From the NCBI GenBank assembly GCA_000004985.1, contig GG738852.1: a stretch of DNA of 64,000 bases. One strand, written 5' to 3'. Of this stretch, positions 5,353-61,167 are shown one piece after another. The DNA is from Naegleria gruberi (taxonomy: Eukaryota). A model generated the notes under the pieces. It made no database searches, had not been told where the DNA came from, and saw nothing but the letters and a program-made list of their open reading frames with translations. Position 1 is the first letter of the stretch. The number at the start of each line of letters is the position of its first letter. Position numbers and translations under genes: made by a program.

Positions 5353-7062
5353 ATGAGTGAATTGAAGGGAGTGCTTTCTTTTGCTTTTGATCGAATATTT
5401 GGATTGGGAGCAGAACCTTCCGAATCAAACTCTATCGGAGGTGATGGTGATGAATTAATGGAAGGAAGGGATGGTGTACAAAATGGAATTTTAAAGGCAA
5501 CATCACCCATTCATAAAATTCTCACCATTGATGCTGGTTCTTCTAAATTCAAGACTTGTTTTTTCGATTTGGAGAAGAAGGATGCATTTAGATGTGATGA
5601 AGCTAGTTCGGATAGGAAGGCCATGTATACTACGGTGGCTTTGATATTTAGCTTACTGGATTCGTCTGTGAAGAGGATACAAGTTGTTAATCAGGCCTAT
5701 CCTCTTTCGCATCATGTTTCGTTGAATAGAGGAGAGGCATATGTATTCTTTTATAATTGGAAAAATTTAGTCTTTCCAATATCTGATATGATAAATGAAC
5801 GAAAGTCACCCTCTCCTTCTAAAAAGGATTTGACCTATTGTGATGAAAAGACACTATTAATTGGATCAGAGAATATAGAAATTTCTGCAGAGGGAGTTTA
5901 TGTACGAGTTAACAAGGCACATGTGGAAAAAGCAAGATTATTTACTGGAAATTTGCCATTTGTTCTCGAGACTGGGGATAAGATTCTCTTCTCTAAGGAG
6001 GACATTGTTAGGGAACTGTTTCAATATTGTATATATTCACATGCACAATTACCTAATGGTGTGTCAGTTAGCGATTGCTATATATTTGCTTCGATACCTT
6101 CTAAGGTTTTATTTAGAGAAAGAGAAATGCTTCGTGATATTATTAAGAATGTATCCAAGACTGAAAATGTACATTTAGTGAAAGAAGCTGTAGCTCTTTG
6201 TTATTATTTCTACTATTCCTATAATAGAAATGAACAGTTTGAGATAAAGAAGGAAAATGCACCTAAAGCAGTCGCAATTGATATTGGACATTACAGCTCT
6301 GATATTGCTGTTATGGAACTTGTTGATGAGAATAGTATTCGCATGAATAGTGCTTATTGTCTTTATCATGGTGGGCATAAGTTAACCATAGATTTGCTTA
6401 ACATAATGAAGACCCAAGAGCAAGTTGGTACATTGAAGAATAATGAGGAGGAATTCTGGAAGGAAGTCTCAAAAACCAATGAATGTAAAGAAACCATATT
6501 CAATTTAGATACAAAGTGGAACAAGGAGGGAAACTATGAATCTGGTCAGGATGGATGTATTATTGACAATATTTTCCTACCAATTGACTCTATCAAATTA
6601 ATGATGGAAATGAATTTTTCAGATGTCATAGAGACAGCCAAGAAATTAGTGGTGGAGAACTCCAGTCAATATTTAATTTTAGGAGGACCTGTTTCAAAAA
6701 CAAAGCTATTCAGAAATTATATTAGAGGAGTTTTAGGATCAATGTGTGAAATTGTATTCACCAAGAACTTGTTTGATATTTGTATTGGAACTTTTCTGTA
6801 TGCTTGCAATAGAATTTCTCAACCTTTGAATTTTATTTCCTCTCAATCAACCACCTCAGATACTAGTGTACTTTCATCACCCTCATCTGTCAAGTTCACT
6901 AACCTTTCTCCAATTGACCATGTATTTCTTTTCACTGCTAAAGCAATTGTTTGTACAAAAGTTCCAGAGTATATCAACAAGAGATTTAGAGGAATAAGTC
7001 GTGAAATGTACAATCAAATGATTGAAGATAGTAGGTATTTGTTTTTATTTAATAGATTATAA
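5353..7062 (+). CDS. Hypothetical protein with weak actin/Hsp70-like ATPase-fold motifs
   Basis: ATG start. 569 aa. AVAIDIGHYSSDIAV resembles a phosphate-1 motif and LILGGPVSKTKLFRNYIRGVLG an adenosine motif. This is inference only. Confidence 0.4.
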   Translation: MSELKGVLSFAFDRIFGLGAEPSESNSIGGDGDELMEGRDGVQNGILKATSPIHKILTIDAGSSKFKTCFFDLEKKDAFRCDEASSDRKAMYTTVALIFSLLDSSVKRIQVVNQAYPLSHHVSLNRGEAYVFFYNWKNLVFPISDMINERKSPSPSKKDLTYCDEKTLLIGSENIEISAEGVYVRVNKAHVEKARLFTGNLPFVLETGDKILFSKEDIVRELFQYCIYSHAQLPNGVSVSDCYIFASIPSKVLFREREMLRDIIKNVSKTENVHLVKEAVALCYYFYYSYNRNEQFEIKKENAPKAVAIDIGHYSSDIAVMELVDENSIRMNSAYCLYHGGHKLTIDLLNIMKTQEQVGTLKNNEEEFWKEVSKTNECKETIFNLDTKWNKEGNYESGQDGCIIDNIFLPIDSIKLMMEMNFSDVIETAKKLVVENSSQYLILGGPVSKTKLFRNYIRGVLGSMCEIVFTKNLFDICIGTFLYACNRISQPLNFISSQSTTSDTSVLSSPSSVKFTNLSPIDHVFLFTAKAIVCTKVPEYINKRFRGISREMYNQMIEDSRYLFLFNRL

Positions 7063-7107
7063 TGAATCATTAAAGTATATGGATTGGAAAAGACTAAACG
7101 ATTGAAC

Positions 7108-10047: not shown

Positions 10048-12441
10048 TTACAAATGTCTAAGCTCGTTTGCTTTGATTCTATCATTAGGCTGACACCTTA
10101 ACATTAGGAGAATCATATCAATTGTGTAATTGTCGCATTTATGTCGCTTTGAACGTTTCAAATTCTTCTCTAGCAATTCATGAACACTTTCTTCCAAAGC
10201 AATCTGCACAGAACCATCCCTTACCAACATGGATGCAATTTGAGTTTTCTAATATAATGTCAAACGAAATGATTAAAAAAAAACACTTACAAAATCACCA
10301 GTCAATACTTGATAAAGAGTACAACCTAATGACCAAATATCTGTTGCTTGTGACAATTCTCCCTTTCCACACAATAACTCAGGAGCAAGGAAAAGTTCAG
10401 TTCCTCTCAATCCAGCTTTCGTATTCAATTGAGAATTGGTTTGTTTTGATTGTTGAATAGAGGACGAATTTGGTGAATGCTTGGTAGATTCTCCAAAATC
10501 ACCAATAATTACATGAACCCAATCATTCGCCAAATTGATTTCATCTAGGAATATATTAGTTGGCTTCAAATCATTATGAGTAATAAACTTGACTTCATGC
10601 AAATGGAAGAGAGCATCAGCCAACTGTTGAATTAGAGTTAACATGAGCTTTTTCGAGAAGACAAATTCAGGATGTTTCTCCACAAATGACTTTAAATCGC
10701 CATGTTTGTAATACTGCATTACAAAACAAACTGATTGCAGTAGTGGACTTGGGAAAACATCAAGAACTTGAATAATATGTGGATGTTTGCATTCAATCAT
10801 TCTCATACCTTCCTCTCTAACAGCAGCAACTCTCTGCTCATCAATGTAATGCTCAATCCTAATTGACTTGATGGCTACTTGTGTATTGCTCTTCTCATCG
10901 AGAGCCAAGTAGACATTAGCAAAAGAACCTCTACCAATTAACTTTTCAACCACGTAACGATCTTTAAGTCTGTGATCTGCCTGAAGAGTATAATCTTCAT
11001 CCTCATAACAATCATTATCTGTTCCATCTTCACAAATGGAATCCCTTCGAATGACATTATTCTCAAGTGCTTGAGACTTGTAACTCTCTATTATACTACT
11101 GGCAACATATTCTACTTCACTGGCTCTTCTTAGATGATCATTCTGATCGGTCATATATGGCATTGCATCCACATTTTTCAGATCTTCTCTCTTCTCTGGT
11201 ATGACCACTGTTGGTCGATTTGCAGTCTTGAAACTTGTCTTGATAACTGAAGTATTTTCCTGGAGTGGTGAGGTCATTTGGAGAGATCTCTGTAAAAAGC
11301 TTGATTTGAGTGAGGTAATTTTATCCTCAATGTGTGGACTCTTCTTATCGAAATTAGAGTGCATATTGAATGTACTTGTACTGGATTGAGCAAGTTGTTG
11401 TGGTGGCTTTGGATTTTCAATGTCTTCCTCAATGGAAATCAGAGTTGGATTGTTGCTCAATGTTTGTTGTTGTTCGCTGTGATCCATCATGACAACTGGT
11501 GCATAGGTATTGGAAGGCTCCTTATCCTTCTTTTGCTTCTTTCTAAAACATGACATGACGATCAACAATATGGCTATGATAAGAATGGAAGCCAGAATGA
11601 AAAGTCCAACACCAATCATTCCTGCAATGAGTGCTGATTGATCGACAGTACTTGCCTTGGAGTTTCTCAAAATTTGAACAGAGTATGTGCATGATTCACT
11701 CAGACAACCACTCATCAAGACGACCACATAAATTGTTGCCTGTGGATAGTTAGCATTCTCAATTGGGAGAGTAAAGTTAGATTCCTTCTGAGTAAAGATC
11801 AATCTTTTCTGATAATCATAATTGCCGTTTGGTGTTGCCTTCTTGTTAATACCCACAAACACATCGACATATTCGGTTTTATCAGAGGGAGGTCTTGCAA
11901 TTTGTAAGGTAAATGTATCAGTGGCAAAATTAATACTCGAATCGGAGAAACAATTTGGACAAAAGTAATAATCAGAAAGGAGAGCAGGTGTGGTATAATT
12001 ATTTCCAACTCCCAAACTCAAATACTTGTACAATTGTAAAATGTTGAATTTTGTAAACTCCAAGCTAGAAGCAAGAGGATTGTGAATGACGAGAGAATAA
12101 TCAGTATCATGCTTTGAGAAAGCATAATCTGATTTTGAATAATCTGTTGTACCTGTATCGATAAGGGAAATGATAGAAGTATCTCTTGTTCTATTGAATG
12201 TTGTCAAATTATTCGAAGGCATGTAGCCAATCAAGTATCCTGCAAGGTTGGTTTGAAATTCAAACTTCCAATTACCGTAACCAAAGGGAAATGAAAAATA
12301 ATTATTCGAAGAGAGGCCATAAATTGTGTTTTGTTGTTGAAAACTTGGGTTGACCAAAAGTAATAGACAACCAAGCAAAACAAGAGCCAACAGTGAAGAA
12401 TTGACGATTTGGTGGCGATGAGGATTGATTCTCTTGATCAT
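10048..12441 (-). CDS. Receptor-like Ser/Thr protein kinase (signal peptide, ectodomain, 1 TM, kinase); 2 exons
   Basis: join(12441..10291,10248..10048). ATG verified. Signal peptide plus ~300-aa ectodomain, TM IAGMIGVGLFILASILIIAILLIV, and kinase motifs GRGSFANVY, HNDLKPTNIFL, DFG, APE. Exon 1 ends GAT TTT|GTAAGT. A 42-nt intron runs to ttag. Exon 2 (KTQIAS MLVRDG...DRIKANELRHL) is in frame. An alternative 93-nt acceptor (tgcag) is not excluded. Confidence 0.7.
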
Positions 12442-17434: not shown

Positions 17435-17841
17435 ATGTTCAAACGACTTTTAACTCAACCATTAAAAGTAAGTTTAGTAGTAGAGAAGTTTGGGTCGCTC
17501 ATTTTCAACAGAAGACTTCACAACGATTCTTTTCAACATCATTCCGAAACAATCAACAAAATAATGGATCGAGAGCTCCAAGAAATTTCTTCAATATTGA
17601 TTTGAGAACCTTGATGATTTCTTTGGCTGTGATTAGTATGGGTGTTGGAGCATATTATAATCACAAGACGAAGGAAAGACAATTAGAATACAAGGAAAAG
17701 AGACGAGAGGAAAGGAAGGAAGCCATTCATGAAACAAAAGAAGTTGTGGGTGAGAAAATTAACAAGGCAAAGAATTGGATAAACTCTAAGAGAAATAAGT
17801 CAGTAAATGTGGAAACCAACAATGAAGAGGATAAGAAATAA
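17435..17841 (+). CDS. Small protein with N-terminal presequence-like exon and K/E-rich tail; 2 exons
   Basis: join(17435..17467,17509..17841). Exon 1 is MFKRLLTQPLK|GTAAGT. A 41-nt intron ends in caacag. Exon 2 is in frame (KTSQRFFSTSFRN...). One hydrophobic segment MISLAVISMGVGAYY. Confidence 0.45.
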
Positions 17842-19032: not shown

Positions 19033-19717
19033 ATGTCAAAAGATCAACAACAGGAAGGATCAGCTCAACCACCATCGGATTTTTTCAAATATCTTCTCGG
19101 AAAATGGAAACGTAATTTAGAGTGGAGAGAATTTGGAGGAATTTGTATGTAATTGTCAAACATTGACGACAATGTTAAATAATTATTATTTATTGAAATG
19201 TTAAATATCTAACAATTTAAATAATATATTGGAATTAATCAAATTGGAATATAAATTAGATCAACACCTATCGACGAGTAATACATTTGTTCAATATGAA
19301 GAAAATTCAAAATATGAAAGTAGTTATGTATCGGATTTGTCAGCAGCAAATGCTGGAAATAGATATGCAAGATTTTCATTCGGAAATTCATTACACGATT
19401 TGAAATTTGCCTATGAAATGATTTTTAGCAATACTAGTACAACACCTTCATCTTCACCTCTATTTTCCAAGTCTAGTTTGAGTTCTCAACAACCAGAATG
19501 TCAAACATTCCAGTGGAAATATCTAGGAGTTGTGTGTAAGGGTGAATATTATTCATCACCTGGTGTGGCAACTTTTAACGTTGTTCTGCCAACAGCTTTT
19601 GTGACAACCACTTATAAAATTGTCGATCAAAATACCATGTCAGTAGTCATTGTAGAAGTTGACGAAAAACAGCAACCAACCATTCAGTATGGTAACATGT
19701 ACAGATTAACTCAATAA
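19033..19717 (+). CDS. Hypothetical protein; 2 exons
   Basis: join(19033..19144,19260..19717). Exon 1 is MSKDQQQEG...FKYLLGKWKRNLEWREFGGI then T|GTATGT. A 115-nt AT-rich intron ends in aaattag. Phase 1 joins in frame (Y QHLSTSNTF...). Confidence 0.45.
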
Positions 19718-21645: not shown

Positions 21646-22551
21646 TTAAACAAAAATCGAAGAGGGAGAGACTGGATGTGGTACTTGATTCTTGTGACTC
21701 ATTGTTTGGACATAGTGTTGGAAATCCTTCTCTTGTCTGGCTTCTCTCACCTTTTCATCAAAGGTGGTCTTGGTTTCAATTTGGGATGTAAAGGAAAGCT
21801 GCTGCAAGAGTTGTTCAATAATGTGGGATTGTTGGGAGGTATCCTCCATTGTTTCACAAGGTTCCATTTCAAAATATTGACACTGACTCTTAAAGTTTCT
21901 GCTCAATAGTGAGAATAATTGATTGTAAGCTGCTTGAAATTCCTCCTCAAATATTGCCTTGCTTTGGAATGAATCTATTGGTGGTGTCACTTTAAAATTG
22001 ATTGCAACAATGAGAATTGGTATCGAATGGAGGAATGCTAAAAATTTCAATTTGATTTCATAAAAATTCCAAATATTGTTTGATGAAACCTACAATTTTG
22101 TTTGACAATATTCAACAATGCCTCCAAACTGTAATGCAATGAAATATAATCCTTTCTATTAATGACATAGATCAATCCCTTGACTCCAATTAAATTCCTT
22201 CCCTTAAGTAGATTTTCCTTATCCATTTCTACAAAATCCAATTTTTTACCTTCCTTTAATTTAAATTGTTTGAAATCAGAAAAGTTCGGAATGGTCAAAT
22301 AATCCAAAATCTTTTCAATAAGAAATGTTTTTCCACTCATCTTTAATCCCGAAACCACTCTGATGATGTCATCAACATATTCCAATAAGATGTGTTGCCA
22401 TTATTCCATTTTCATTATTAACCGATTCATTTCCAATTTAAAAAACCTACATTTTCTCAACAATCATCCTACTCTTACTCTCTTGTTTAGGCAGTGTTGA
22501 AGAGGAAGATTTGTTTGGTGAATCCTTCTTCTTTGATGAATTTCCTCCCAT
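21646..22551 (-). CDS. Divergent ARF/ARL-like small GTPase-like protein with N-myristoylation motif; 3 exons
   Basis: join(22551..22451,22359..22094,22037..21646). Exon 1 is MGGNSSKKK... (MGxxxS). A 91-nt intron (GTAGGT..atcag) and a 56-nt intron (GTAGGT..ttttag) follow, and all frames are consistent. P-loop GLKMSGKT. ARF-like blocks GLIYVINRKD and PILIVAINFKV. The DxxGQ Gln and NKxD are not conserved. Confidence 0.5.
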
Positions 22552-24588: not shown

Positions 24589-25004
24589 TGTACAAATAAA
24601 TCAAACATGTAAAACAATAGTTGTGCTGATTTGTCACTCTTTGTGAAATGATGGCATTTAGCACCACTGAATATCTCACATTTTGTTGATACTGTTGTAG
24701 ATGAAGTATTCCTTCGAGATATCATCATTAATATTACCCATGTTGATTATTTTCATGATTCCTTTATGGAAACCGATAGAGTTTCGTTTTTCAACACAAG
24801 GTTTCTGTCCTGTCATTCATCATCCAATCAAACAAGAGAGTCAACAACAAACCACTGTTGAACCTTCATCATTCACACTATCATCCATAATGGTACCCTG
24901 AAAGTCATTCTAATTAGAGAAAATTACATTCACTAGCTTTTCGTATCGCTATTGGATTTTTCTGTTGAAAACGTTTTTTTTTTGAATTGAAAAATCAAAC
25001 AAAA

Positions 25005-27920: not shown

Positions 27921-27933
27921 GAATAAATATTTT

Positions 27934-28823
27934 TTAATTTGCCTTGTAGAGAATTTCATAATGACCTGGTCTGAAGAGGAGGTGAATAATTGGTTCTTCA
28001 CTTGAACCATCTTCAGGAATGGTATAACCAAATATTGATACATCAGATCTTGTTTGAGCATCCAAAACTTCAATTCTAACCTTAACTCCAAATGCTGCTG
28101 CGAGGGCAGTAATATGAATGTTGTCACTGTCCTTTCCCATAATTTCAATTTCTCTCGAACAGAAATCTTTTGCAGTAGCATATTGATCCAAAAAGAATGG
28201 TAAAAAGTCATCAGAGTTCAATTGAATATAACAAGAAAGCAAAAATCTGAAAAAGCAAATGAGAGCATCTGATTCCATCATGGTATCAGGTGTCTTGTCA
28301 CTGAAATAGTTCTCAATAAGAGTATTCACATCAGCAATAGATCCATCCCTTACTAGCTCAAATACTCTCTTGGTTGATTCATAGAAATCTTCAAGACAAT
28401 ACTCTGGATATTTCAAATCATTAATCAATGCATGATAATACTTGTCAATACGTGAAATTATACTTTTTGTCAATTCAGGATTTTTCTGATCAATCAAATA
28501 TTCCAGCAATTCAAACACAAATCCTCTCAAGAAACAATTGCCATCACCTCTAATTCCTCTAATCTTTTTATATTCCTTCATAAATGAAGATTTTTTAATC
28601 TTTTCCTGAACACTTTGATCATGCATGTTGTATGACAATGTTTCAACAGTTAAATTTGAAGCTTCCGGATCAACGATCGGATACTTTTTAATTTCACTCT
28701 CGATATTCTTTTGTTGATTTTCGAATTGTTCATAAGAATAACCAGCAGCTGCAGCAGAGGAACTACACCATTATTATTTTGAGAATTACCAGTGGCGGCA
28801 GCAGGTGGTAGATGTTGACTCAT
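27934..28823 (-). CDS. OTUB1: Otubain-type OTU deubiquitinase (OTUB1-like); 2 exons
   Basis: join(28823..28790,28748..27934). Catalytic motif IRGDGNCFLRGF. C-terminal LLFRPGHYEILY. The N-terminus aligns to OTUB1 (NIESEIKKYPIVDPEA...KEYKKIRGIRGDGNCF). The initiator exon MSQHLPPAAAT joins only after removing a 41-nt GTAATT..CTGCAG intron. Otherwise there is a +1 frame offset. Confidence 0.8.
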
Positions 28824-28925
28824 TTTTTCTTCTATTATTAGAAGAGGTGAAACTTTACAATAATGAAATGTTCCACAAAATCCAATTCAATTCATTCAGC
28901 AACAATGATCAGTGGAGAAGAAAAT

Positions 28926-32981: not shown

Positions 32982-33225
32982 TTATTCCAGTAATGAATCT
33001 GCTGTTTGTTCAGGAAGGGGAAAGTGTTCGAATTATAATTTATGTTCCTGCAATACAGGATATACTGGTCCAAATTGCGATATTGCTATTTGTTATGGAA
33101 AATTGCAAAATGACACCACCGTTTGTTCCTCTTTTGGTGATTGTATTTCCTATAACAACTGCCAATGCAAACTTGGATATAGAGGAAACCAATGTCAATT
33201 TCTGCAAATGGCAGATATCAGGTGA
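32934..33225 (+). other. Inverted EGF-repeat coding segment (plus strand) at junction of NHL/EGF gene and GPS-kinase ORF
   Basis: The plus-strand frame encodes GGWYGQNCEITRC..CSGRGKCSNYNLCSCNTGYTGPNCDIAICYGKLQNDTTVCSSFGDCISYNNCQCKLGYRGNQCQF. These are 2.5 tenascin-type EGF repeats, paralogous to those encoded on the minus strand at 33230–33800. It is bounded by ccag| (32933) and CAG|GTGAGA (33225/6), with an in-frame TGA at 33223–33225. Confidence 0.4.
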
Positions 33226-36200
33226 GATACATAACCCATTTGAGCTACAAATATTACTGTTGTTTGAGGCTACATCATTACAGATAGTATATTGGCAATT
33301 ACTTCCAACATATCCTAAATTACATGAACATAAATTTGGACCTACACAAGTTCCATTACCACAACCGAGCCCGAATAATGCATTTCCCACTGTGTTTTTA
33401 ACACCTGCACACAAATATGATTGACACTCTGAGTCAAAATATCCTGCATTACAAGTACAATTATTAGAACTTAAACAGGCTCCTTTTCCAGAGCAAACGT
33501 TGGAAGATGCTGATGATTTTCCAAAGCATGCTGTAATTTGACATTCAGTTCCAGTATACCCATTCGAGCATGAGCATGTGTTGGGGAGAGAGCAGTTTCC
33601 CCTACCTGAACACACATTTGAATCATTAGAATATTTACCATAGCAGATGGCAAGTTGACAATTAAGCCCAGAAAATCCATTGAAACAGGTACAATTATTT
33701 GGAGAGTTACACAATCCATGGCCACTGCAAGTGGTAAGCTCATTAGAAACTCCAAAACAGGAGGCAATACATTGAGTGAAATTCCCATTAAGCCCATAAC
33801 CACTCGGACAGTAAGGAGCCAATCTTCTTATTCTGTTGTTCCCTTTATCGCTGATTAGTATTTCTCCACTATTGGCAATAAAAGTTGTTTGATATAAATA
33901 GTTGAATAAGGCACTTGTAGAGTTGCCTATGTCACCATATAATCCATTAATTGAATCATCTCCTCCAACAGCATTAATATTTCCATCAGGACCAATAACC
34001 CGAATCGAATGTTCATTAGTATAGTAAATAAAATCTCCATTCTTAGAAACAGCTACACTAGTCGTGTGCATACAGGCACCAATAGCTGGAACTCCAATAG
34101 CAAATTCATCACAGGAGCTAGTTGACCCACCAACAGTACTAATAATTCCAGTGTCTGCTGAAACTTTTCTTATTCTAAAATTTTCAGATATAAAAATATC
34201 ACCCAAACTACTAATTGCCAATGAGGAAGTGTATTGTAATTGAGCAGATGTGGCCAGAACATTGTTTCCATAAGTTCCACTTACTCCAGTTCCTGCAACC
34301 GGGTACACAGTTCCGCTCAGTGTTATTTTGTAAAGTCTTGGATTGGCAGATGTAAGAACAAGAATTTCACCAGTTATTGGTGATAGAGCAATACATTGAA
34401 CATCCAATGGAGCATTGATTGCTAGTGTTCCATCAGGGACAATGTTTTTGTCTCCATTTCCAGCTGTTGTTAAATGTGAGTTCACCAAAGCAAACAATTC
34501 CACTTACCAATTGTAGTTATTATTCCATTCGTTGAAACCTTGCGAACTCGGGAATTCATAGAATCTGCAATATAGACCTCACCTGAGCCACTGACTGCCA
34601 CACAACGAGGAGAGTTTAATTGGGCATTAATTGCCAAACCCCCATCTCCACTAAATCCACTTGTGCCATTGCCCGCAAATGTTACTATAGTATTATTAGG
34701 ATATAAAATTCGTATTCTGTCATTGAAGGTGTCTGATAACATTATTAAGCTTGATAATTTTTACAATTTAAAACTTACCAGCAATATATATTTCCCCAGT
34801 ATTAGCAGCTACTGCATGTTGTGGTTGTGCTAATTGAGCATTTATTCCCAATCCACGATCTCCAGAAAATGAGCCACCATGACCTGCAATAGTTGTAATA
34901 ATTCCTGAGCTATAAGAAACAAGTCTCACTCTGTTATTGTATTGATCTATTTAAGAATACTGTGTTAATTAAAGAGTAACAAAAGAATACGTACCTACAA
35001 TATATAAATCTCCAGAGGTATAATTGGCTGTGAGGGAAAATGGTTTAATTTGTACATTCTTTGCTAGCCCACCATTTCCAAGATCACCAATTACTGGAGA
35101 AACAGGACATATTCCATTTCCTGTTATAGTTGAAATAATTCCATTCGAATCTATTTTCCTTACAACACATTCACCATCAGAAGAAAAGAAAATATCACCC
35201 TTAGAAGTGGTGGTAATTGAAAATGGATATGATATCAATGCATTGATGGCCAACCCTCCATCTCCTGAGTTCATTATTAATTTTCTAATATTAAAAACGA
35301 AACAAACCTGAATAGCCAGCAGTGCCTGATCCTGCTATTGTAATAATTGTAGAATTGGATTTAAAAATTCTTCTAATTCTATGAGTTTCATAGTCAGCAA
35401 TAATAAAGTCACCATTTGATGCTATAGCAAAGGAGCGAAAACGACTAAGATAACTTGAAGTTGCAATAACGTTATCTGAATTGTATCCACAGAATCCATA
35501 AACTCCAGCTTTACAAAATTAATTCATTGTCCTTAATAACAATACTTACCAATGGTTGAAATAATTCCATTAGCGCCTATTTTTCTAAGTAAACAATTAA
35601 AAGAATCAGCAAAGTAAACAGTTCCATCATTTGCAACATTAATACCAAAAGGAAATCTCAAGTTGGAATTAATTGCCAATTGACCATCTTTTTGTTTTAA
35701 AATCAAAAAGAAAACTCAATACTTACCAGCACTGTACCCTTCGGTTCCATAAACCCCAGCAACAGTAACAATAGTTCCATTAGTGAATATCTTTCTAATT
35801 CTATGTTTTTCAGCTTCTGTGAGATACAAATCCCCATTAGCACTGAATGATATTCCCATCGGATTCATTAACATGGCATTAATAGCCAATGCTCCATCGC
35901 CATAATTTGAACTGGCAAAACCAGTTCCTGCATACGTTGTAACAATTCCATTCGCAATCTTTCGAATGAATGCACCATATGAAAGAGGATTGAAAAAAGA
36001 TCCGAATAAAGTATTTTCAGCAATGTACACATGTTGAGTAATTGGATGTATAGCAACTGCACTTGGTGAGTAAAGAGAGACACGTAAAGGATCATATCCC
36101 TCTCCCTTTACATTCAATCCACCAGCAATGGTAGAAACATTATAGCTTGGATAGAATGGTGTTGTTACTCCTGCAACAGCATGTGGTTGGTTACAAACAA

Positions 36201-36249
36201 TTGAGAGTGCAACCACCACAGCAAAAAGAATCGATACCAAAGTGTGCAT
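33040..36249 (-). CDS. Secreted NHL-repeat (beta-propeller) protein with tenascin-type EGF repeat array; 7 exons
   Basis: join(36249..35727,35687..35550,35508..35308,35264..34995,34946..34779,34732..34508,34463..33040). Signal peptide MHTLVSILFAVVVALSIVC. About 12 NHL repeats (GDGG.A..A.L..P.G....NG..Y.AD..N.RIRK). Then ~7 EGF repeats (CSG.G.C.....C.C..GY.G..C). All six introns are phase 1 and 39/41/43/48/46/44 nt long, with GTAAGT/GTTTGT/GTACGT donors. EGF periodicity is lost at 33226 (..CSSNGLCIS|PDICHLQKLTL..), and the last 60 aa are non-EGF down to the TAA at 33040. Confidence 0.75.
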
Positions 36250-36848: not shown

Positions 36849-37644
36849 ATGCTTCGAGAGGCTAGAGTTTCAGATAAAGAGAAAAAGAGAATTGTTGATG
36901 AATTTCTTCACCTTATTACCAATAGCAAGGCTTTCGATAGCAAGTGTCTTAATACGGAAACAATCGATTGTTTTGTTCTCCCATTCTTTGAGTGGAATGG
37001 CGTAACTTTAACGATGGAACTTTTGAAAAAGGCTAATTATCAAGAGTTGATTGCCAAGTTGGAACAATCGCCAATATTCTATCCTATATTAGTTAGTTCA
37101 ATCTTTTTTCATTTTGGAATGGCTTATCAATGGAAGAAGAACTCAAACTCAAACTTAGAAATTCCAAGATGAGTTGCAAGGAAGAAGCTTTACTAATCAA
37201 GAGAAATTGAACATGGAAAGTATTCAACCAATCATCAAAAGTGAATTCCTTAAAGAAGCTGCCAGAATTGTTTCCAAATCACATCAAGAGAAAATCCCAA
37301 GCCCTCCTTCCCTTATTGTCCTTCATGAACTTGAAAAAATGGACCTAGATACTGCTGTTAAAGCCATGTTCAATATTGAGCAAAATTTAATGCTCAAACT
37401 AGCTGAACAAAAGGATGAAACAAACGAATTGGTTACGGCCATTGGGCAATTAATGGTGGAAACAAACAAATTGGTTAAGGCCACTGAGCAAAATTTCATG
37501 AGCAAACTTGATGAACTAAAGGTGGAAAATAGCAAATTGATGAAAGAAATTAAAAGTTGGAAGGATGAAAAGGCGTATAAGAAATGTGATTGTGATTGTT
37601 TGGGTTGCAAGGATTGTTCCAAGAAGACGAATCACTGTAAATAA
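36849..37644 (+). CDS. Coiled-coil protein with C-terminal Cys cluster; 2 exons
   Basis: join(36849..37091,37159..37644). Exon 1 ends ..FYPIL|GTTAGT. A 67-nt intron runs to cttag. Exon 2 KFQDELQGRSF... is in frame. Heptad-rich middle. C-terminal CDCDCLGCKDCSKKTNHCK. Confidence 0.5.
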
Positions 37645-40427: not shown

Positions 40428-41137
40428 TTAGAGGAGAGTGAGCATATTTTCAGCAGTTGTCTTTTCCAATTGACCTGGAGAATCTTCAACGAACAATTCC
40501 TTAACTTTACCATTTTCAATAAGCATACTGAAACGCTTAGATCTCTTTCCCAAACCAGCGGCAGTCAAATCGACTTCAAGACCAACTTGTCTAGTGAATT
40601 CACCCAATGGATCAGCAATGAATTCAATTTCTTCATTACCAGAAGCAACCTTTTCCTTCCAGGCCTTCATGACAAAACTATCATTGACACTGAGGCAGAT
40701 AATCTTGGAAATACCCTTTTCCTTCAATGCTTTAGAATTGTTAAGGTAACTTGGAACGTGCTTGTTTGAACAGACTGGAGTGAAAGCACCCTATTATTAT
40801 ATAATTGTTGTGTGATGTAATAATAATGGATATATAATTAATTCCGATCATTCCGATCAATTAATTCCAAAAATATTAAAATTATTATAAAATTGTTATC
40901 AAACAAGAAGAATACATTAGTAAATTCTAACGAAATGATACTTACTGGGACACCAAAGACAATAACCTTTCCAGAAGTGAACAAATCATCAGTAGTAACA
41001 GCTTCATTGGTAACCTTGAAGAGTTTAACTGGAGTGGATGGCTTGACTTCAACATTGGTGTGGGCAGATCTGAATGAAACAACAGTTGATCCAATCAATG
41101 ATTGTTTTTTGAAGAGAGGAATGGTCTTACGGAGCAT
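40428..41137 (-). CDS. Peroxiredoxin-5-type (atypical 2-Cys) peroxiredoxin with mitochondrial-type presequence; 2 exons
   Basis: join(41137..40946,40790..40428). Exon 1 is MLRKTIPLFKK...VIVFGVP|GTAAGT. A 155-nt AT-rich intron ends in ..aatag. Exon 2 is GAFTPVCSNKHVPSYL...FVEDSPGQLEKTTAENMLTLL (PRDX5 family). Confidence 0.8.
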
Positions 41138-44300: not shown

Positions 44301-45654
44301 ATGGTGGTTTTTCAGCACTCACTTGAACAGATGACAAATATTTGTGAACCTCTTCAACAATCAATTGATCGATCAAAATCGATCCAGTCAATTCAGAATA
44401 GACACGAACAATATATTCTTCATCATCATCATGATCATCATCTTTGAGTAAATTAGCAATGGCCATATTTTCCTTATTCAAATTCTTCTTTTCCTCCTGA
44501 CGAAGGTGAATAATATAAGTTAAACGATTCTTCATGGAAATGAAAATATTCTCTGGCAATACATCCTTACACATGGCATACATGAAAGCATCAATAAATC
44601 TCTCATTGTGTCCAATATCTACTTGTTTTGAGACAATTTGCCAATAATAACTTGAATTTACACTTGCAGATGTTTCATCTTCTTGGGTAGTTTCATCATT
44701 TTCTTGTTCTGCTGGTTTCAAGTGACTGGAATTTCCAGGACTTTGTGAAATTGATGAATTATCCATAGCTGATCCTTCATCATCGTCATCATCCTTATTG
44801 GTATTCTCTTTTTCCTTTCCAGGTACCACAGATGTTGAAATAACTTCAGCATCTCCTCCTCTCAATTGAATAATTGCAAAAACTTGACCACTGACATCTC
44901 TTTGATTATCAAGTTTTGAAGAAATGGCAAGTTTCAATTCTTGATCATTAACATATTGATACAAATTACAACTAGCAAATGACAGTTCCGATAAAACTGT
45001 TCCAGCATAACAAGAAGCAAGGAAAACAATACAACGAACTTCTTGATCAACTTGTGAAAGATCCAATTCAATATATTCATTGCTATCAGAAATAGCTTTT
45101 TCAAGAGGAATTGTGTCATCTTTCAATTGTTCCTTCCTATTGTTGTTTTGATTAATATAGTTCAATTAGTTTTGTTATTATTTTAGAATAATAATATTGT
45201 AATTTGTTATATGAACATGTTAATATCTAAATAAACATAAGAAGAATACATACATTCTATTAGAATCTAGATTTTTAAATCCATTTCTATCATCACCACT
45301 ATGTTTTAATCCCTTCACTTGATCCAAGTTATTGAAAAAACAAACATCATGAATACCACCATATTTGTTTAAAAGAATGGCAACTAAATCAACATCGTGT
45401 GTTAGTGTAGATTTTGATTTCCATTGTAAAGTTGCTATAAATCGTGTATTAGAAATATTGGATGTGGCTAATGATGGACTTGTTGATGATTCCGTATTTT
45501 GTTGTGGATTGATTGGTGGTAAATTAAAGACAAAATTATGACTGTTTTTAAAGGGAAAAGTTGAGAATGTTGTAGGATTTGTTGTGCTGTGGGTGATGGA
45601 AAGAGGTGAATTTGGAGGTGAGAGAGCAGCAGCAAGTTTGGTTTTATTTAACAT
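41356..45654 (-). CDS. Large multi-TerD-like-domain protein with C-terminal C2 domain; 2 exons
   Basis: join(45654..45254,45136..41356). Exon 1 has the TerD signature THDVDLVAILLNKYGGIHDVCFFNNLDQVKGLKHSGDDRNGFKNLD, then AT|GTATGT. A 117-nt intron ends in ..caacaatag, and G completes an ATG codon in frame. Further TerD-like modules (..VFAIIQLRGGDAEV.., ..HANLAVIAYRGGQRDEWFIEV.., ..YCRVVGMRTGQEIIRV..). C-terminal C2 domain (LLPVDHGSADPYLRVKL...NPDWHEPHTIHIF). Confidence 0.6.
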
Positions 45655-49639: not shown

Positions 49640-50938
49640 ATGTTCGACACCTCGGTACTAGAAGAACCAATAGATCTCTACTCAATATTGATGCTCCAGC
49701 AAAGCAATACCACCACTACCAACTCAACCACAACAAATTCTACCGTTACGCATGCTAGCATCGCAGCAACTTTCCCACAAATGATGGAGAATGCTCTCTC
49801 AATCTCCAATTCAATCTTGTACATTATCATCTACTCTATTCTCATGGCTATCATGACTGGTTTCCTCATCAAATACAAGCAAGACATGAAGAGAAACCAG
49901 AAAATTCTCTATGGTCTTGTCTTTTTATGTATTCTCACACAATATTTTGGTTTAATTTTCAGATTAGTTTACAATGGTGAAGCCCTATGGATGAACATGA
50001 CATTTCCTGATTATTCGAAATCATTGACCCAAATCAACTACTACAAGACTGTTCTCTATGTATTTTCATTCCTTGAAAATTTGTTTGTTGTCTTTCAGAC
50101 TGTTAATATTATCATTGTGATTTGTTTTATGCAGAACTTGTTGTAAGTATTTTCTGATATGATTATTTAAACATTACATCATGTTAGTTTGAATACTGTC
50201 AAATTGTCAGGTGCTATGACCAATGGAGTTTATAAAGGGTTGAAGTGGACTATTAACATTGTGAGCTTACTTTGTGCTGTCATCATGAGTATTATGGTCA
50301 TTTTGAATAGTGCCATTGGATTAATATCTAAAATGCAGGTTGCCAACTTGAATACCCTTCCAATTATTGTTACCATCTTTTTAATTTTCCTAGCAACTGT
50401 CATTGTTGAAACTGTATTGTTCCTTGCCTTGGGTATTCGTTTATTGTTAGTTGTGAGAAAGAACAGTCTCAATATTTCACAAGCTAAGGACAAGATTTCA
50501 TTCCTTCAAAGACCTGAAGTCAGAATTAGTGGATTAATTATTGGAATGTTAGTCAGTGCCTATATCCAAGTATTGGCAGCTGTTGTATCTGTTTTCACTA
50601 CTTCCTATGCCTCCTATTTGCACATTTTTGATTACTTTTTACAAGCTTTTGGTATTCTAGTTTTTGCAGTATTCGTCTTGCTTCTCTACAATCCATTGGT
50701 TTCGTATAGTGTTTCCTCTAAATCTTCAACATCAAGCCAAGCTCTCGATGATGTCAAGACCCACAGTGAAAGAACTGACTCTGCACACAACAGAAGACTC
50801 TCCTCTGCTCGAAGTGCCATCAACAAACAAACCAGTAATTTGAGTGATGCCTATGAGAAGGTACTTTCTCCTTCCACAACTACATCTACTTCGGTCTCTT
50901 CTCCCATCGGAAACAATGATTCTTTCACTAAGGTGTAA
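49640..50938 (+). CDS. Seven-transmembrane receptor-like protein (GPCR-like), paralog 1; 2 exons
   Basis: join(49640..50142,50188..50938). Exon 1 ends ..QNL TT|GTAAGT. A 45-nt intron ends in gttag, phase 2 in frame. Seven hydrophobic helices (3 in exon 1, 4 in exon 2) and an S/T-rich cytoplasmic tail. Confidence 0.6.
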
Positions 50939-51159: not shown

Positions 51160-52491
51160 ATGTTTTGGGACAATCGACATCATTTTCACACTTTCAATAG
51201 TGGTTCTCTGCAAACATCATCAACAACAACACTTCTCTCCACAACAGCAACATCAACAACAAATACTTCATCAACAAACACAACAACAGATTACTCCAAA
51301 ATAATTCCTCAGCTGACAGAGAATGCATCGTCAATAGCAAATTCCATATTCTTTATTATTATTTATTCGATTCTGTTGGCATGTATTTTGGCTTTTTATA
51401 TTAAATCGAGAAAGCAAATGAAGAGGAATCAGAAAATTCTCTTTCTATTGGTTGGAATTTGTATTATTGTGCAATATTTGGGTTTAGTTTGGAGATTAGT
51501 TTATAATGGAACAGGTCTACACATTAACATTAATTATTCTGACTATTCTGAAATTACCAATTTCGAAGAGTATTTAATTGTACTCTATGTTTCATCAACT
51601 TTTGAGAATGCACTCGTATTGAGTCAGGTGATTAATATTATTATTGTCACTTGCTTTATTCAGAACATGTTGTAAGTAATTTTGTGACACAAATTCCACA
51701 ATATTGACATTCACAGTTTGAGAACTGTTGAGAATGCTGGAGCTATGAGTAAGAAAGTCTACAAGATTTTGAAATATCTCATCAATATCGCTAGTATATT
51801 ATTTGCAGTACTTGTCACACCACTTATCATTCTCAATTCTTCCATTAATTTGGCAACCAAAATGCAAGTTGTGAAATTTGACGTTACACCAATCATTGTG
51901 GTTATTGTAGTCACATTTGTCTTGGTAATATTTGGAGAATTAACAATATTTATTACATTAGGAGCCAGATTATTGTACGTTGTAAAACAGAACTCTCTCA
52001 AAATATCACAAATGAAACATAGTGAACAAGCAACTTTGAAAGAGATTCTTCAAAGACCTTATTCGAAAATTGTTGGACTTATCCTTGGAATTTTATTGAG
52101 CTCACTGCTCCAATTTATTGCTGGAATTATTTCGTTTTTGACCTCAAACTATGCTTCATATTTACATATATTGGATTATTTCTTACAAGCTTTTGGAATT
52201 TTACTGTTTGCAGTTCTGGTCTTGCTTGTTTACAATCCATTGGTACTTTCACATAATAGTATTGGAAGCTCAACTGTGAATCCAAATGATGAGCCACCTT
52301 CTCAGATTTCCAGTGCCAGACTACCATCCTCAAAAAGAAAAACCATGAGTACAAAGAGTATGGAATTGAGACACTCACCAAAGAATCAAACTACAAGTCA
52401 ACATGAAAAGGAGGAACACATTGATGAAAGTGTCTCTACTCGCAATGATGGTGAGCAACCAATCTCCACTCCAGGTGAATCTCAAGTTTAA
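51160..52491 (+). CDS. Seven-transmembrane receptor-like protein, paralog 2 (tandem duplicate of 49640 gene); 2 exons
   Basis: join(51160..51671,51717..52491). Same architecture. A 45-nt intron (GTAAGT..cacag) sits at the identical position after ..CFIQNM TT. Collinear similarity to paralog 1 (IIIYSIL..KRNQKIL..YNG, SYASYLHI.DYFLQAFGIL.FAV.VLL.YNPLV). Confidence 0.6.
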
Positions 52492-54499: not shown

Positions 54500-55918
54500 A
54501 TGGCGCGTATTGAAAATGTGCAATCAGCATTCACCTCTAGTTTTCAACAAATTCTCGAGATGGGCAATATAAAAGATCCCAATCTGGAGAGGGCTCTTGA
54601 GTTGTTGCGAGAAAAAATTATTCTTCAAGGATTACCTTCGGAATCATTGGTAGGTTGTTTTCCGATGATGATTTGTTATTTAATAATCGGAAAGAAACAC
54701 AAAGATGCCATCTTGTTGGGAAAGTATGATGAAAAGTGTGAGGATTGTACTCTGAGATTCATGTTGGAAAAGTGTGATTATAAACGTGTTTTGGAATGTG
54801 AGGAAAAAGGTGATACAACAGAATTGTTGGAGAGTATTAAAAATTTTGAAAGGAAGAGATTTCAATATGAAGATGAATGGGATAAGGAAATGGAAAATAA
54901 TACATGTTTTAAATGTCAAAAATTAATTGCTGATAATAGTATTAGAAGAAGAGTGTGGCTTGCTTTATTACGGATAAAACAAGTTGATTTGGATCATTAT
55001 GTGACACTTGTAAAACAAGGATCACAAGCTGAGGACTATGAATCTTTCTTGAGAGATGTTGATAGAACTATTGGATATTTTCCTGTATGTACAATATATT
55101 TGGAGAATGTTCTGACATAATATTCATTTGTGAAACTTAGCATTTAAAAAGAAGTGGAATTTCAAAAAATAGACAAGAAACACTCAAATATGTATTATAT
55201 AAGAAAATGAAAAGAGTTATCAATAGTTTCCTCCTAACATACGGACACAAGTTTAGTTTTATTCAAGGAATGACTGTTATTTGTACATTTTTGCTCATGC
55301 ACATGTCAGAAGTGGAAGCCTTCTATTTCTTTGAGAGATTGATCACTAAAGTTTTTCCAACGTATGTGAATCCAGCTCAAAGAGTGGGCAATTCTTCAGG
55401 TAATAGTGCTGAGAAGGGTATTGAAGGAGTTTATGCTGCCTGTTACTTACTTGATCAATTGATGAAAGATCATGATCCAGAGCTTTTCAAAATTTTATCT
55501 CCATCCAAATTATGGGCTTTTGCATGTAAGTTGAAATGCTTATTAATTGGAATTCAAGTCTAAATGTTTTTTATTAGATATTAAGGCAATAATGTGTGCT
55601 ATGAGTGACGTACAAAAAACAGCAGTGTATTGGGATTTCTTCATGGCAACAGGTTTTCATATGATTGTATTGTGTGTTTTTGGCATGGTGAAAGTTGAAC
55701 GAGAAAAAATCATTGCTCATTTCAAAAAAGAGAAGGACTCTATGAAAACTATTACATTTATCAAAGATGAAATCATTCCAAACTCTGACCCACAAAAGGT
55801 GATAACAGAGGCTTGCAATACCATGGAGTGTGTGAGTGAAAATTTTTACGATCTTCTTGTGCGTCATACTACAGACCTAGCTCTTTGTATTGACCTGAAA
55901 AACAAAACTGTTAAATAA
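54500..55918 (+). CDS. TBC-domain Rab GTPase-activating protein; 3 exons
   Basis: join(54500..55084,55141..55525,55578..55918). Exon 1 has the arginine-finger motif RRRVWLALLRI...RDVDRTIGYFP. Donor CCT|GTATGT, then a 56-nt intron. Exon 2 has the glutamine-finger motif FSFIQGMTVICTFLL. Donor T|GTAAGT, then a 52-nt intron, phase 1. Exon 3 ..IKAIMCAMSD..WDFFMATGF. Both junctions restore the track ORF frames exactly. Confidence 0.75.
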
Positions 55919-60100: not shown

Positions 60101-61167
60101 GAAACATCGTCAATAGTGTCCACTTTGAAACAATTTCCTTTCATGATACTGTCATAATCTTGAGCTTTAGTTAAGAAGAGTTCCTTCTTTTTTGCTTCAT
60201 CCATACCAGCAAGCATTTGATAGAAAATGTGATATGATCTTTCATTAGGTCCCTGCTTCATTAAACGGGATTTTTCCAACAAGTCTATTTCCATGTTAAT
60301 TAATTGAATCCAAACCAAACTTACAGTTTTCTGTGACGGCACCCTTAATGATACCATGTGAGTCAAATTGAAGTTTAATAAATTTACCAAATCTAGAAGA
60401 GTTATCATTGTTCTTTGTTTTAGCGTTACCAAAAGCTTCTAGAATTGGAGAAGCTTGTTGAATTTTAGAACTCATCCCATCCGCCACACTCTTAACATTA
60501 GGATCGTTTGTCATTGTTGATGAAAGTTTACATAAATATTTGATAACAGATTTACAGGCCTCAGTTTTACCTATTAAATTTGATATTAAAAGTGATCAAA
60601 ATACTTAATGAAAAATTAAAACTTACCAGCACCACTTTCACCTGAAATTAGCAAGGTTTGATTTCCTTCCCCTCCTTTCATTGCTCTGTAGGCTCGGTCG
60701 GCAATTTGCCAACAATGTGGATTTAAGCCCTTCTTTCTCTCGACGTAATTAATCATGAATTCATCCTTACAGTATGGGATGGTCCACTTGAACGGATTGA
60801 GGGAGATGATAAGACCTCCAATAAATGTATAAATTTTGTCTTCCTTGAAACGGTTTTGAACACAATACAGCAATGATGATTCGTTAAGTTCAATCAAATC
60901 CAGCAAGTCATCATTCACTGCAGTTAATATATCTTCTTTGTACATGTTGAGATCACTTTCGGTAACCCAGGCATCTTCAACACCTTGCGATGAGCAAAGG
61001 TAAGGCGTTGGAATTTTGTTTGTTTGCTTCTTTTCATCAATATCCTTAATATTACCTATAACCCATGAGTGAACAGGATGATTAAATAAAACCTTAGCAC
61101 CCTTTTCCCAACTTGTGGATTTTGCAGCAGCAGGTTTTGCTACTAATGTTGAAGCCCTAGGTGGCAT
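57151..61167 (-). CDS. Unconventional myosin heavy chain with long E/R/K-rich single-alpha-helix/coiled-coil region; 3 exons
   Basis: join(61167..60627,60570..60325,60284..57151). Exon 1 ends at the P-loop GESGAG|GTAAGT. A 56-nt intron follows. Exon 2 (G)[12 protein letters not shown]...[15 protein letters not shown] (switch I). Donor T|GTAAGT, then a 40-nt intron. Exon 3 [23 protein letters not shown]...switch II DIFGFE...IQ motif...~450 aa of E/K/R repeats...S/P-rich tail. Confidence 0.85.

What the first reader, a model, noticed from the sequence alone, without database searches (positions are those of the whole stretch)
33040..36249. Very short intron class (39–56 nt) dominates; splicing is required to recover several genes
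Hand-resolved junctions give introns of 39, 41, 43, 48, 46 and 44 nt in the NHL gene. Others are 41 nt (OTUB1-like, 28789–28749), 41 nt (17468–17508), 42 nt (receptor kinase 10290–10249), 45 and 45 nt (both 7TM genes), 40 and 56 nt (myosin), 56 and 52 nt (TBC Rab-GAP) and 56 nt (ARF-like). A minority are 67–155 nt. Donors are GTAAGT-like (also GTATGT, GTAGGT, GTTTGT, GTACGT) and acceptors are YAG, often ttag or acag. In every case the phase restores the neighbouring ORF frame exactly. The otubain start exon, for example, is in frame only after removing 41 nt. Such a tight ~40–48-nt intron mode is a strong genome signature. Gene callers trained on longer-intron relatives would fragment these genes.
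Basis: seen in the sequence. Interest (0 to 1): 0.5.

Follow-up and report, generated by a model that had tools for sequence, protein, structure and literature searches.

The report
Short spliceosomal introns in Naegleria gruberi
The window is Naegleria gruberi nuclear DNA, and the 39–56-nt segments are ordinary GT–AG spliceosomal introns, more than half of them already present in the public gene models, so the finding is correct but not new.

Summary
All six NHL-gene introns (39, 41, 43, 48, 46, 44 nt, minus strand) are GT..AG, AT-rich and phase 1. Removing them gives one 982-aa ORF in which every junction restores the NHL repeat motif. The other listed introns also check out, except that 17468–17508 should be 17468–17511 (44 nt).

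I count 22 supported introns in the window: 17 of 39–56 nt and 5 of 67–155 nt (median 45.5). The donor consensus is GTAAGT. A YTRAY branch-like motif is enriched. There is no polypyrimidine tract.

Splicing restores complete myosin-head, kinase, TBC and redoxin domains.

The window is Naegleria gruberi NEG-M. My spliced models for myosin, an ARF-like protein, a peroxiredoxin and two small proteins are letter-for-letter identical to public XP_ proteins. The public NHL model uses five of the six introns.

The syntenic N. fowleri kinase gene's 145 non-coding nt fit three introns of about 44–53 nt.

Verdict: real, canonical U2-type introns of a compact protist genome. Already known, low interest. 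The residual value is annotation repair: NHL intron 5, and apparently missing otubain and 7TM models.

The parts
33040..36249 (-). NHL-repeat / EGF-like secreted protein gene, 7 exons (36249-35727, 35687-35550, 35508-35308, 35264-34995, 34946-34779, 34732-34508, 34463-33040), 982 aa. The last ~56 codons (33210-33043) are doubtful.
   Evidence: TEN_NHL 1e-42, NHL, EGF_2; identical to the public N. gruberi protein P0014 except for a 16-aa gap at intron 5; the C-terminal tail is antisense to an EGF-like ORF and has near-zero coding score.
35688..35726 (-). NHL intron 1: 39 nt, GTAAGT..AAG, phase 1, length 3n with an in-frame stop
   Evidence: Present in public model P0014. Junction GYSA|DGQLAIN.
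35509..35549 (-). NHL intron 2: 41 nt, GTAAGT..AAG, phase 1
   Evidence: Present in P0014. Junction STIA|GVYG.
35265..35307 (-). NHL intron 3: 43 nt, GTTTGT..CAG, phase 1
   Evidence: Present in P0014. Junction GYSG|DGGLAIN.
34947..34994 (-). NHL intron 4: 48 nt, GTACGT..TAG, phase 1, length 3n with an in-frame stop
   Evidence: Present in P0014. Junction LYIV|DQYNNRVR.
34733..34778 (-). NHL intron 5: 46 nt, GTAAGT..CAG, phase 1. The public model uses the same donor with an acceptor at 34685 (94 nt).
   Evidence: the 46-nt version raises the NHL score from 89.1 to 96.7 bits and TEN_NHL from 138.5 to 146.8 bits, and keeps the motif YIA|DTFNDRIR.
34464..34507 (-). NHL intron 6: 44 nt, GTAAGT..CAG, phase 1
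   Evidence: Present in P0014. Junction TTIA|GNGD.
28749..28789 (-). Otubain intron: 41 nt, GTAATT..CAG. It joins an 11-codon start exon (ATG 28823) to the main ORF.
   Evidence: the conserved YSYEQFENQQ segment lies upstream of the first in-frame ATG and just downstream of an in-frame TAA. Weakest donor of the set. The N. fowleri orthologue is intronless.
17468..17511 (+). 44-nt intron in a 120-aa protein gene (17435-17841).
   Evidence: The spliced product equals XP_002680721.1 exactly.
10249..10290 (-). 42-nt intron in the receptor-like kinase gene (12441-10048)
   Evidence: The Pkinase match grows from profile 1-195 to 1-258 of 263.
50143..50187 (+). 45-nt intron in multi-pass membrane protein gene a (49640-50938)
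   Evidence: Same position and donor as the paralogue. The alternative 105-nt intron would delete a hydrophobic (predicted transmembrane) stretch that the paralogue keeps.
51672..51716 (+). 45-nt intron in multi-pass membrane protein gene b (51160-52491)
60571..60626 (-). Myosin intron 1: 56 nt
   Evidence: The Myosin_head profile matches 2-679 contiguously after splicing. The product equals XP_002680898.1 exactly.
60285..60324 (-). Myosin intron 2: 40 nt
55085..55140 (+). TBC Rab-GAP intron 1: 56 nt
   Evidence: The RabGAP-TBC profile matches 2-216 of 216 across both junctions.
55526..55577 (+). TBC Rab-GAP intron 2: 52 nt
22038..22093 (-). ARF-like GTPase intron 2: 56 nt
   Evidence: The product equals XP_002680892.1 exactly.
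22360..22450 (-). ARF-like GTPase intron 1: 91 nt
7031..7075 (+). 45-nt intron joining ORFs 5353-7030 and 7076-8037. Least independently supported of the short class.
   Evidence: There is no Pfam domain and no exact public match.
37092..37158 (+). 67-nt intron, GTTAGT..TAG
   Evidence: No exact public match.
19145..19259 (+). 115-nt intron
   Evidence: The product equals XP_002680723.1 exactly.
45137..45253 (-). 117-nt intron in the C2/TerD-domain gene
40791..40945 (-). 155-nt intron in the peroxiredoxin gene
   Evidence: The Redoxin match spans the junction. The product equals XP_002680895.1 exactly.

Best explanation
The segments are canonical U2-type (GT-AG) spliceosomal introns of the Naegleria gruberi nuclear genome. 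Most sit near the organism's lower length limit, about 40-56 nt.

Shown here:
- precise GT..AG boundaries
- a strong GTAAGT donor
- an A/T-rich interior
- an enriched YTRAY motif 6-31 nt upstream of the 3' splice site
- a mostly Y-AG acceptor with no polypyrimidine tract
- exact restoration of reading frame, repeat motifs and protein domains on removal

Inferred from established knowledge of short-intron organisms: such introns are recognised across the intron ('intron definition'). U1 and U6 pair with GUAAGU, and U2 pairs with the TTAAT/TTAAC/TTGAC-type branch site. A retained intron almost always exposes a premature stop, so unspliced mRNA would give a truncated product or be degraded.

The six NHL introns are all phase 1 and fall at three recurring positions of the repeat. 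This suggests they were copied along with the blades during internal duplication.
For: - Frame logic and repeat restoration.
- Donor statistics, YTRAY in 17/22 introns against 9.7±2.3 in shuffles (2 of 1000 shuffles reach it), composition, phases, and an in-frame stop inside 19/22 introns including all seven of length 3n.
- Domain completion after splicing: myosin head 2-679 contiguous, against fragments 2-98 and 170-679; Pkinase 1-258 against 1-195; TBC 2-216; Redoxin.
- Organism: P0014 'predicted protein [Naegleria gruberi]' is identical over 966 aa.
- Exact identity of my spliced myosin, ARF-like, peroxiredoxin, 120-aa and 189-aa models to XP_ proteins, all on one 938,756-bp scaffold.
- Density: about 22 introns in about 31 genes, or 0.7 per gene. 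This matches the published 1.7 exons per gene (PMC8296547).
- In the syntenic N. fowleri locus, the kinase gene's 145 nt of non-coding sequence resolves into 53+44+48 nt (or 38+44+63 nt) GT-AG introns.
Against: - The public models that agree with mine are themselves predictions.
- Five of the 17 short introns rest on frame logic alone, or on comparison of two paralogues that share the same intron position: 7031-7075, the two 7TM introns, otubain, and NHL intron 5 against the 94-nt alternative.
- The otubain intron has an atypical GTAATT donor, no YTRAY motif and no counterpart in N. fowleri.
- The published mean intron length for N. gruberi (203 bp) is far above this window's mean of 60 nt. 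The window may be unrepresentative, or the annotation may carry a long, partly spurious tail.
Confidence: 0.95

Rival explanations
1. At some sites the true intron is longer than the reader's short one. The short version would then be an artefact of preferring the minimal deletion that restores the frame. The candidates are the 94-nt intron at NHL intron 5 (as in the public model), a 74-nt one at NHL intron 2, a 119-nt one in the ARF-like gene and a 105-nt one in 7TM gene a.
For: The public model P0014 uses 34778-34685 (94 nt). My own length-agnostic dynamic-programming gene finder chose the 94, 105, 119 or 74-nt alternatives in some runs. All of these alternatives are in frame.
Against: - The 46-nt version keeps the 16 residues DTFNDRIRILYPNNTI, which match every other blade, and it raises the NHL and TEN_NHL scores by about 8 bits.
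- The 56-nt ARF-like version is the one in the public protein.
- The 105-nt 7TM version deletes a hydrophobic (predicted transmembrane) stretch that the paralogue keeps.
- The 41-nt NHL intron 2 is the one used in P0014.
Confidence: 0.12
2. The interruptions are not introns. They would be frameshifts or stops from sequencing or assembly errors, or from pseudogenisation, or they would be bypassed by translational recoding.
For: None positive. Formally, no RNA data were examined. The otubain case alone could also be explained by a non-AUG start or a local assembly error.
Against: - Every interruption is bounded by GT..AG.
- The donor shows a consensus that was not imposed: +5 G in 21/22 and +6 T in 22/22.
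- GC drops to about 0.2 inside the segments.
- Random errors would not insert 39-56 nt of AT-rich sequence exactly between repeat-motif halves or between domain halves.
- The sister species' syntenic kinase gene carries non-coding sequence that fits introns of the same size class.
Confidence: 0.02

Closest known systems
Annotated introns of Naegleria gruberi NEG-M (Fritz-Laylin et al. 2010 genome; GenBank ACER00000000; XP_0026807xx-8xx proteins)
   Same: This is the same locus. Twelve of the 22 introns give products identical to public proteins. Intron density of about 0.7 per gene matches the published 1.7 exons per gene.
   Different: The public NHL model uses a 94-nt intron where the repeat motif favours 46 nt. 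No public protein was found for the otubain or for the two 7TM genes. The published summary statistic is a mean of 203 bp, whereas this window's median is 45.5 nt.
Naegleria fowleri introns (published mean 126-144 bp; PMC8296547)
   Same: The syntenic kinase gene has 145 nt of non-coding sequence, which resolves into three GT-AG introns of 44-53 nt with GTAAGA, GTATGT and GTAGGT donors. That paper set the minimum intron length for read mapping to 30 bp, 'based on an assessment of predicted genes'.
   Different: The N. fowleri otubain orthologue is intronless, so individual introns are not all conserved.
'Minimal intron' classes of compact eukaryotic genomes (from my own knowledge: C. elegans about 47 nt, Drosophila about 60 nt, S. 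pombe and Aspergillus about 50-60 nt; median values for Dmel and Cele are visible in the PMC6142364 supplement)
   Same: A sharp cluster near a lower length bound, a right-skewed tail, and presumed intron-definition splicing.
   Different: Here the 3' region is A/T-rich (41% A, 37% T) rather than pyrimidine-rich. The cluster sits slightly lower, at 39-48 nt.
Ultrashort introns of ciliates and nucleomorphs (from my own knowledge: Paramecium about 25 nt, Stentor 15 nt, Bigelowiella nucleomorph 18-21 nt)
   Same: GT-AG, AT-rich, and near a mechanical minimum.
   Different: The Naegleria introns are roughly two to three times longer. They also keep a strong GTAAGT donor and a recognisable branch-like motif, so they are not in the 'ultrashort' category.

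Membership tests
U2-type (major) GT-AG spliceosomal introns | GT at the 5' end and AG at the 3' end | tested here: met
   22 of 22. These two dinucleotides were imposed by the search.
U2-type (major) GT-AG spliceosomal introns | Extended 5' splice-site consensus GTRAGT, complementary to U1 and U6 | tested here: met
   +3 A in 20/22, +4 A in 14/22, +5 G in 21/22, +6 T in 22/22. P values range from 3e-3 down to 2e-15 against base composition.
U2-type (major) GT-AG spliceosomal introns | Branch-point motif (YTRAY) a short distance upstream of the 3' splice site | tested here: met
   17/22 introns have YTRAY 6-31 nt from the 3' end, against 9.7±2.3 in shuffled interiors (0.2% of shuffles reach 17). 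Actual branch usage was not tested.
U2-type (major) GT-AG spliceosomal introns | Polypyrimidine tract before the acceptor (metazoan and yeast hallmark, not universal) | tested here: not met
   The 15 nt before the YAG are 41% A, 37% T, 13% C and 9% G. This is common in AT-rich protists and does not exclude membership.
U2-type (major) GT-AG spliceosomal introns | Removal restores a continuous ORF and an intact protein | tested here: met
   Domain completion. Exact public proteins.
U2-type (major) GT-AG spliceosomal introns | Absent from mature mRNA; excised as a lariat | not testable with these tools
   No transcript data were reachable. The look-up of encoding contigs found no N. gruberi record.
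U12-type (minor) introns | 5' splice site [AG]TATCCTT and a TCCTTAAC branch site | tested here: not met
   No donor begins with GTATCC or ATATCC. The donors seen are GTAAGT, GTATGT, GTAGGT, GTTTGT, GTACGT, GTAATT and GTTAGT.
Minimal-intron length class (tight mode near the lower length bound) | Genome-wide length distribution with a sharp peak at about 40-56 nt | tested here: inconclusive
   Within 64 kb, 17 of 22 introns are 39-56 nt. The Ngru row was missing from the readable part of the PMC6142364 supplement.

The most novel reading that the evidence does not exclude
The real N. gruberi intron-length distribution may have a tight mode at about 40-48 nt, far below the published 203-bp mean. 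The 2010 gene set may therefore mis-handle a meaningful fraction of short-intron genes in three ways: by choosing longer in-frame introns that delete residues (as at NHL intron 5), by missing genes whose start exon needs a short intron (otubain), and by missing whole genes (the two 7TM paralogues). If so, a transcript-guided re-annotation would noticeably change the proteome of this reference heterolobosean.
Probability: 0.35. Interest if true: 0.25.

Novelty: already known. Interest (0 to 1): 0.1.

Why it matters
The biology is not new. It is ordinary splicing in a compact protist genome that was sequenced and annotated in 2010.

The practical value is limited to annotation quality. Anyone calling genes in Naegleria or other heteroloboseans must allow introns down to about 35-40 nt and should not require a polypyrimidine tract.

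This one window already shows three likely problems in the public set:
- a probable mis-chosen acceptor in the NHL gene, which deletes 16 aa
- an otubain gene that seems to be absent
- two 7TM paralogues with no counterpart in the protein collection

Tried and rejected
1. My own gene finder, a dynamic-programming GHMM-style model with codon log-odds and no length prior, fused neighbouring genes through 300-1000-nt 'introns'. It also picked 94, 105 and 119-nt alternatives. After I added PWMs trained on the supported set it recovered 15 of the 17 short introns. That run is circular, so I used it only to look for extra introns.

2. Looking up the locus by exact protein failed. The look-up of encoding contigs rejected the spliced protein and found no record for the MCM ORF, the serpin ORF or P0014.

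3. The N. gruberi genome paper is not held. The PMC6142364 supplement table of intron quartiles lacks the Ngru row in the readable text. Other papers gave no mode or median.

4. I tested whether the NHL-EGF gene is spliced to the downstream 1351-aa kinase ORF, skipping the inverted EGF segment. In-frame GT..AG pairs exist, but none has a consensus donor, so I dropped the idea.

6. The homologue search with 7TM gene b returned nothing at E<=1e-5. Junction validation for the 7TM genes therefore rests on comparing the two paralogues only.

7. I considered whether the rule that every 3n-length intron carries an in-frame stop is meaningful. I rejected it as evidence, because stop-free 3n introns would not have been detected by ORF breaks.
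Full report
**What is there**

The window is about 35% GC and densely packed with long ORFs on both strands. This is a gene-dense eukaryotic genome using the standard genetic code.

In the flagged interval the minus strand carries seven consecutive open frames. The frame shifts between them (0, +2, +1, 0, +1, +2) are exactly what introns of 39, 41, 43, 48, 46 and 44 nt would produce. I enumerated every frame-consistent GT..AG pair between neighbouring frames.
- 35726-35688
- 35549-35509
- 35307-35265
- 34994-34947
- 34778-34733
- 34507-34464

Their GC is 0.20-0.36. Splicing gives a 2949-nt CDS (36249-33040) with no internal stop.

The strongest internal evidence is the protein itself. Each junction rebuilds the NHL blade motif: GYS[AG]|DG.LAIN twice, TIA|G twice, and YI[AV]|D..N.R[IV]R twice. 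All six introns are phase 1. Pfam calls the product TEN_NHL (1e-42), NHL and EGF_2.

I rebuilt each gene and confirmed these:
- otubain, 41 nt
- kinase, 42 nt
- two paralogous multi-pass membrane proteins, 45 nt each and at the same position
- myosin, 56 and 40 nt
- TBC Rab-GAP, 56 and 52 nt
- an ARF-like GTPase, 56 nt, plus a 91-nt intron
- longer introns of 67, 115, 117 and 155 nt

I also found a further 45-nt intron at 7031-7075.

There is one coordinate error. The interval 17468-17508 ends in CAA. The AG-terminated intron is 17468-17511, which is 44 nt.

Census: 22 supported introns with lengths 39, 40, 41, 41, 42, 43, 44, 44, 45, 45, 45, 46, 48, 52, 56, 56, 56, 67, 91, 115, 117 and 155 nt. 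The median is 45.5 and the mean 60. They lie in about 31 genes, or about 0.7 per gene.

**Independent support**

Domains are complete only after splicing.
- Myosin_head matches profile positions 2-679 in one stretch at 701 bits. The unspliced ORFs match only 2-98 and 170-679.
- Pkinase extends from 1-195 to 1-258 of 263.
- RabGAP-TBC matches 2-216 of 216 across both junctions.
- Redoxin spans the 155-nt junction.

For otubain, alignment with Naegleria fowleri, Willaertia and other homologues shows that the conserved Y[ST][YF]EQFENQ segment lies upstream of the first in-frame ATG. It lies just downstream of an in-frame TAA (read directly from the sequence). A start exon must therefore be spliced on.

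**Signals**

Only GT and AG were imposed. The donor is nevertheless GTAAGT-like: +3 A in 20/22, +5 G in 21/22 and +6 T in 22/22 (P = 2e-8, 2e-15 and 2e-11 against base composition). Position +8 is T in 16/22.

The acceptor is YAG in 19/22 and AAG in 3/22.

There is no polypyrimidine tract. The 15 nt before the acceptor are 41% A and 37% T.

A YTRAY motif (TTAAT, TTAAC, TTGAC, CTGAC) lies 6-31 nt from the 3' end in 17/22 introns. Shuffled interiors give 9.7±2.3, and 0.2% of shuffles reach 17.

No donor resembles the U12 type.

If retained, 19/22 introns expose an in-frame stop inside the intron, including all seven whose length is a multiple of three. I do not treat this as a finding, because stop-free 3n introns would have escaped detection.

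**Which organism, and is this known?**

The otubain's best hits are N. fowleri (62% identity) and Willaertia magna (46%).

The NHL protein hits 'predicted protein [Naegleria gruberi]' (P0014, 966 aa, on a 938,756-bp scaffold). That protein is identical to my model over its whole length except for one 16-residue gap.

Exact-sequence look-ups show that five of my spliced models are letter-for-letter public N. gruberi proteins:
- myosin: XP_002680898.1
- ARF-like: XP_002680892.1
- peroxiredoxin: XP_002680895.1
- the 120-aa protein: XP_002680721.1
- the 189-aa protein: XP_002680723.1

So the window is N. gruberi NEG-M, and 12 of the 22 introns are already in the 2010 annotation.

The intron density matches the published 1.7 exons per gene. 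The published mean intron length is 203 bp for N. gruberi and 126-144 bp for N. fowleri (PMC8296547). I found no published mode or median.

In the syntenic N. fowleri locus the order kinase, then otubain, then a ~980-aa ORF on the opposite strand is conserved. The annotated kinase gene there carries 145 nt of non-coding sequence. Only two sets of GT-AG introns give a stop-free CDS of the annotated protein length: 53+44+48 nt or 38+44+63 nt. The otubain gene there is intronless. The short class therefore looks like a genus-level property, while individual introns come and go.

At NHL intron 5 the public model pairs the same donor with an acceptor 48 nt further on, giving a 94-nt intron. This deletes DTFNDRIRILYPNNTI, which is the D..N.RIR......I stretch that every other blade has. 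Alternative 3' splice-site use cannot be excluded.

The otubain query found no N. gruberi protein at all. GenBank protein accessions run in positional order on each strand at all 12 anchor genes I could place. They leave only two minus-strand models between the ARF-like gene and the peroxiredoxin gene, yet there are three genes there: otubain, the 1351-aa kinase and NHL. Otubain therefore appears to be unannotated. This is an inference.

A search with one 7TM paralogue found nothing, not even the other paralogue. Both 7TM genes therefore seem to be absent from the public protein set. The cause is unknown.

**Mechanism**

Shown: the boundaries, the consensus signals, and the restoration of frame and domains.

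Inferred from general knowledge of short-intron organisms: splice sites are recognised across the intron, U1/U6 pair with GUAAGU, U2 pairs with the YTRAY site, and premature stops guard against retention.

The three recurring phase-1 positions in the NHL repeat suggest that the introns were duplicated together with the blades.

**Rivals**

Longer alternative introns are possible at a few sites, but motif and domain evidence disfavours them. The public models themselves support the short version at two of those sites.

Sequencing error, pseudogenes or translational recoding cannot explain 22 AT-rich inserts bounded by GT-AG and carrying a donor consensus that was not imposed.

**Verdict**

The feature is ordinary and already known. 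Interest is low. The useful residue is a handful of annotation corrections and the practical rule that gene callers for Naegleria must allow introns of about 40 nt without a pyrimidine tract.

No transcript data could be examined. Mapping PRJEB23822 would settle the remaining points.

Noticed in passing
window 32908-33225 (+), overlapping the 3' end of the NHL gene model (33225-33040, -) and the start of the 1351-aa kinase ORF (32981-28926, -): The plus strand here encodes about 2.5 EGF-like repeats above Pfam gathering scores (EGF_Teneurin 36.3 bits, EGF_2 34.5 bits). It is 70-79% complementary to the minus-strand EGF repeats of the NHL gene. They have no domain and a coding score near zero. 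This looks like an inverted ~300-bp EGF segment, so the true 3' end of the NHL gene is doubtful. The downstream kinase ORF has no obvious hydrophobic signal-like stretch at its N-terminus (by eye; not tested with a predictor). Two distant homologues in other records (P0034, P0041; 33-35% identity; organism not given) carry NHL, EGF and kinase domains in one protein. However, I found no consensus donor that would splice the two genes together.
   Followed up: partly
window 34685-34778 (-): The public N. gruberi protein (P0014) uses a 94-nt intron here and lacks 16 residues of an NHL blade. The 46-nt alternative (34733-34778) restores the blade and scores about 8 bits higher. This is either an annotation error or an alternative 3' splice site.
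   Followed up: yes
window 27934-28823 (-): The otubain (Peptidase_C65) gene seems to have no counterpart in the public N. gruberi protein set. The homologue search gave no N. gruberi hit. Positional accession numbering leaves only two minus-strand models for the three genes between the ARF-like and peroxiredoxin genes. Its N. fowleri orthologue is intronless.
   Followed up: partly
window 49640-50938 (+) and 51160-52491 (+): These are two tandem paralogous multi-pass membrane protein genes with a 45-nt intron at the same position. They have no Pfam family, and the 5.8-billion-protein search found no homologue at E<=1e-5, not even each other. They are apparently absent from public protein sets and may be lineage-specific.
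   Followed up: partly
window 17864-17950 (-): A tRNA (Rfam RF00005, 54.8 bits) with a GUA anticodon (tRNA-Tyr) and an intron-sized insertion of about 14 nt after the anticodon. It lies 23 nt downstream of the stop codon of the 120-aa protein gene, which is on the opposite strand. ARAGORN, run in bacterial mode, missed it.
   Followed up: partly
NHL gene introns, window 34464-35726 (-): All six introns are phase 1 and occupy only three positions of the NHL repeat unit, each used twice. This is consistent with the introns being copied during tandem duplication of blades.
   Followed up: no
L001 (N. fowleri VFQX01000058.1, 158585-179445) against window ~24987-32981: Gene order and orientation are conserved between N. 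fowleri and N. gruberi: receptor-like kinase, otubain, then a ~980-aa ORF on the opposite strand. Upstream of the kinase, N. fowleri has an intronless 1243-aa protein with no Pfam domain where N. gruberi has the NHL-EGF gene.
   Followed up: no
ENA metagenome contigs (P0135, P0143, P0144 on a 7,660-bp contig; P0148 and P0150 on a 5,486-bp contig): Environmental assemblies contain N. gruberi-like DNA. Their protein products on record are short pieces (97, 99 and 61 aa) that cluster with the intron-containing ARF-like and 189-aa genes.
   Followed up: no
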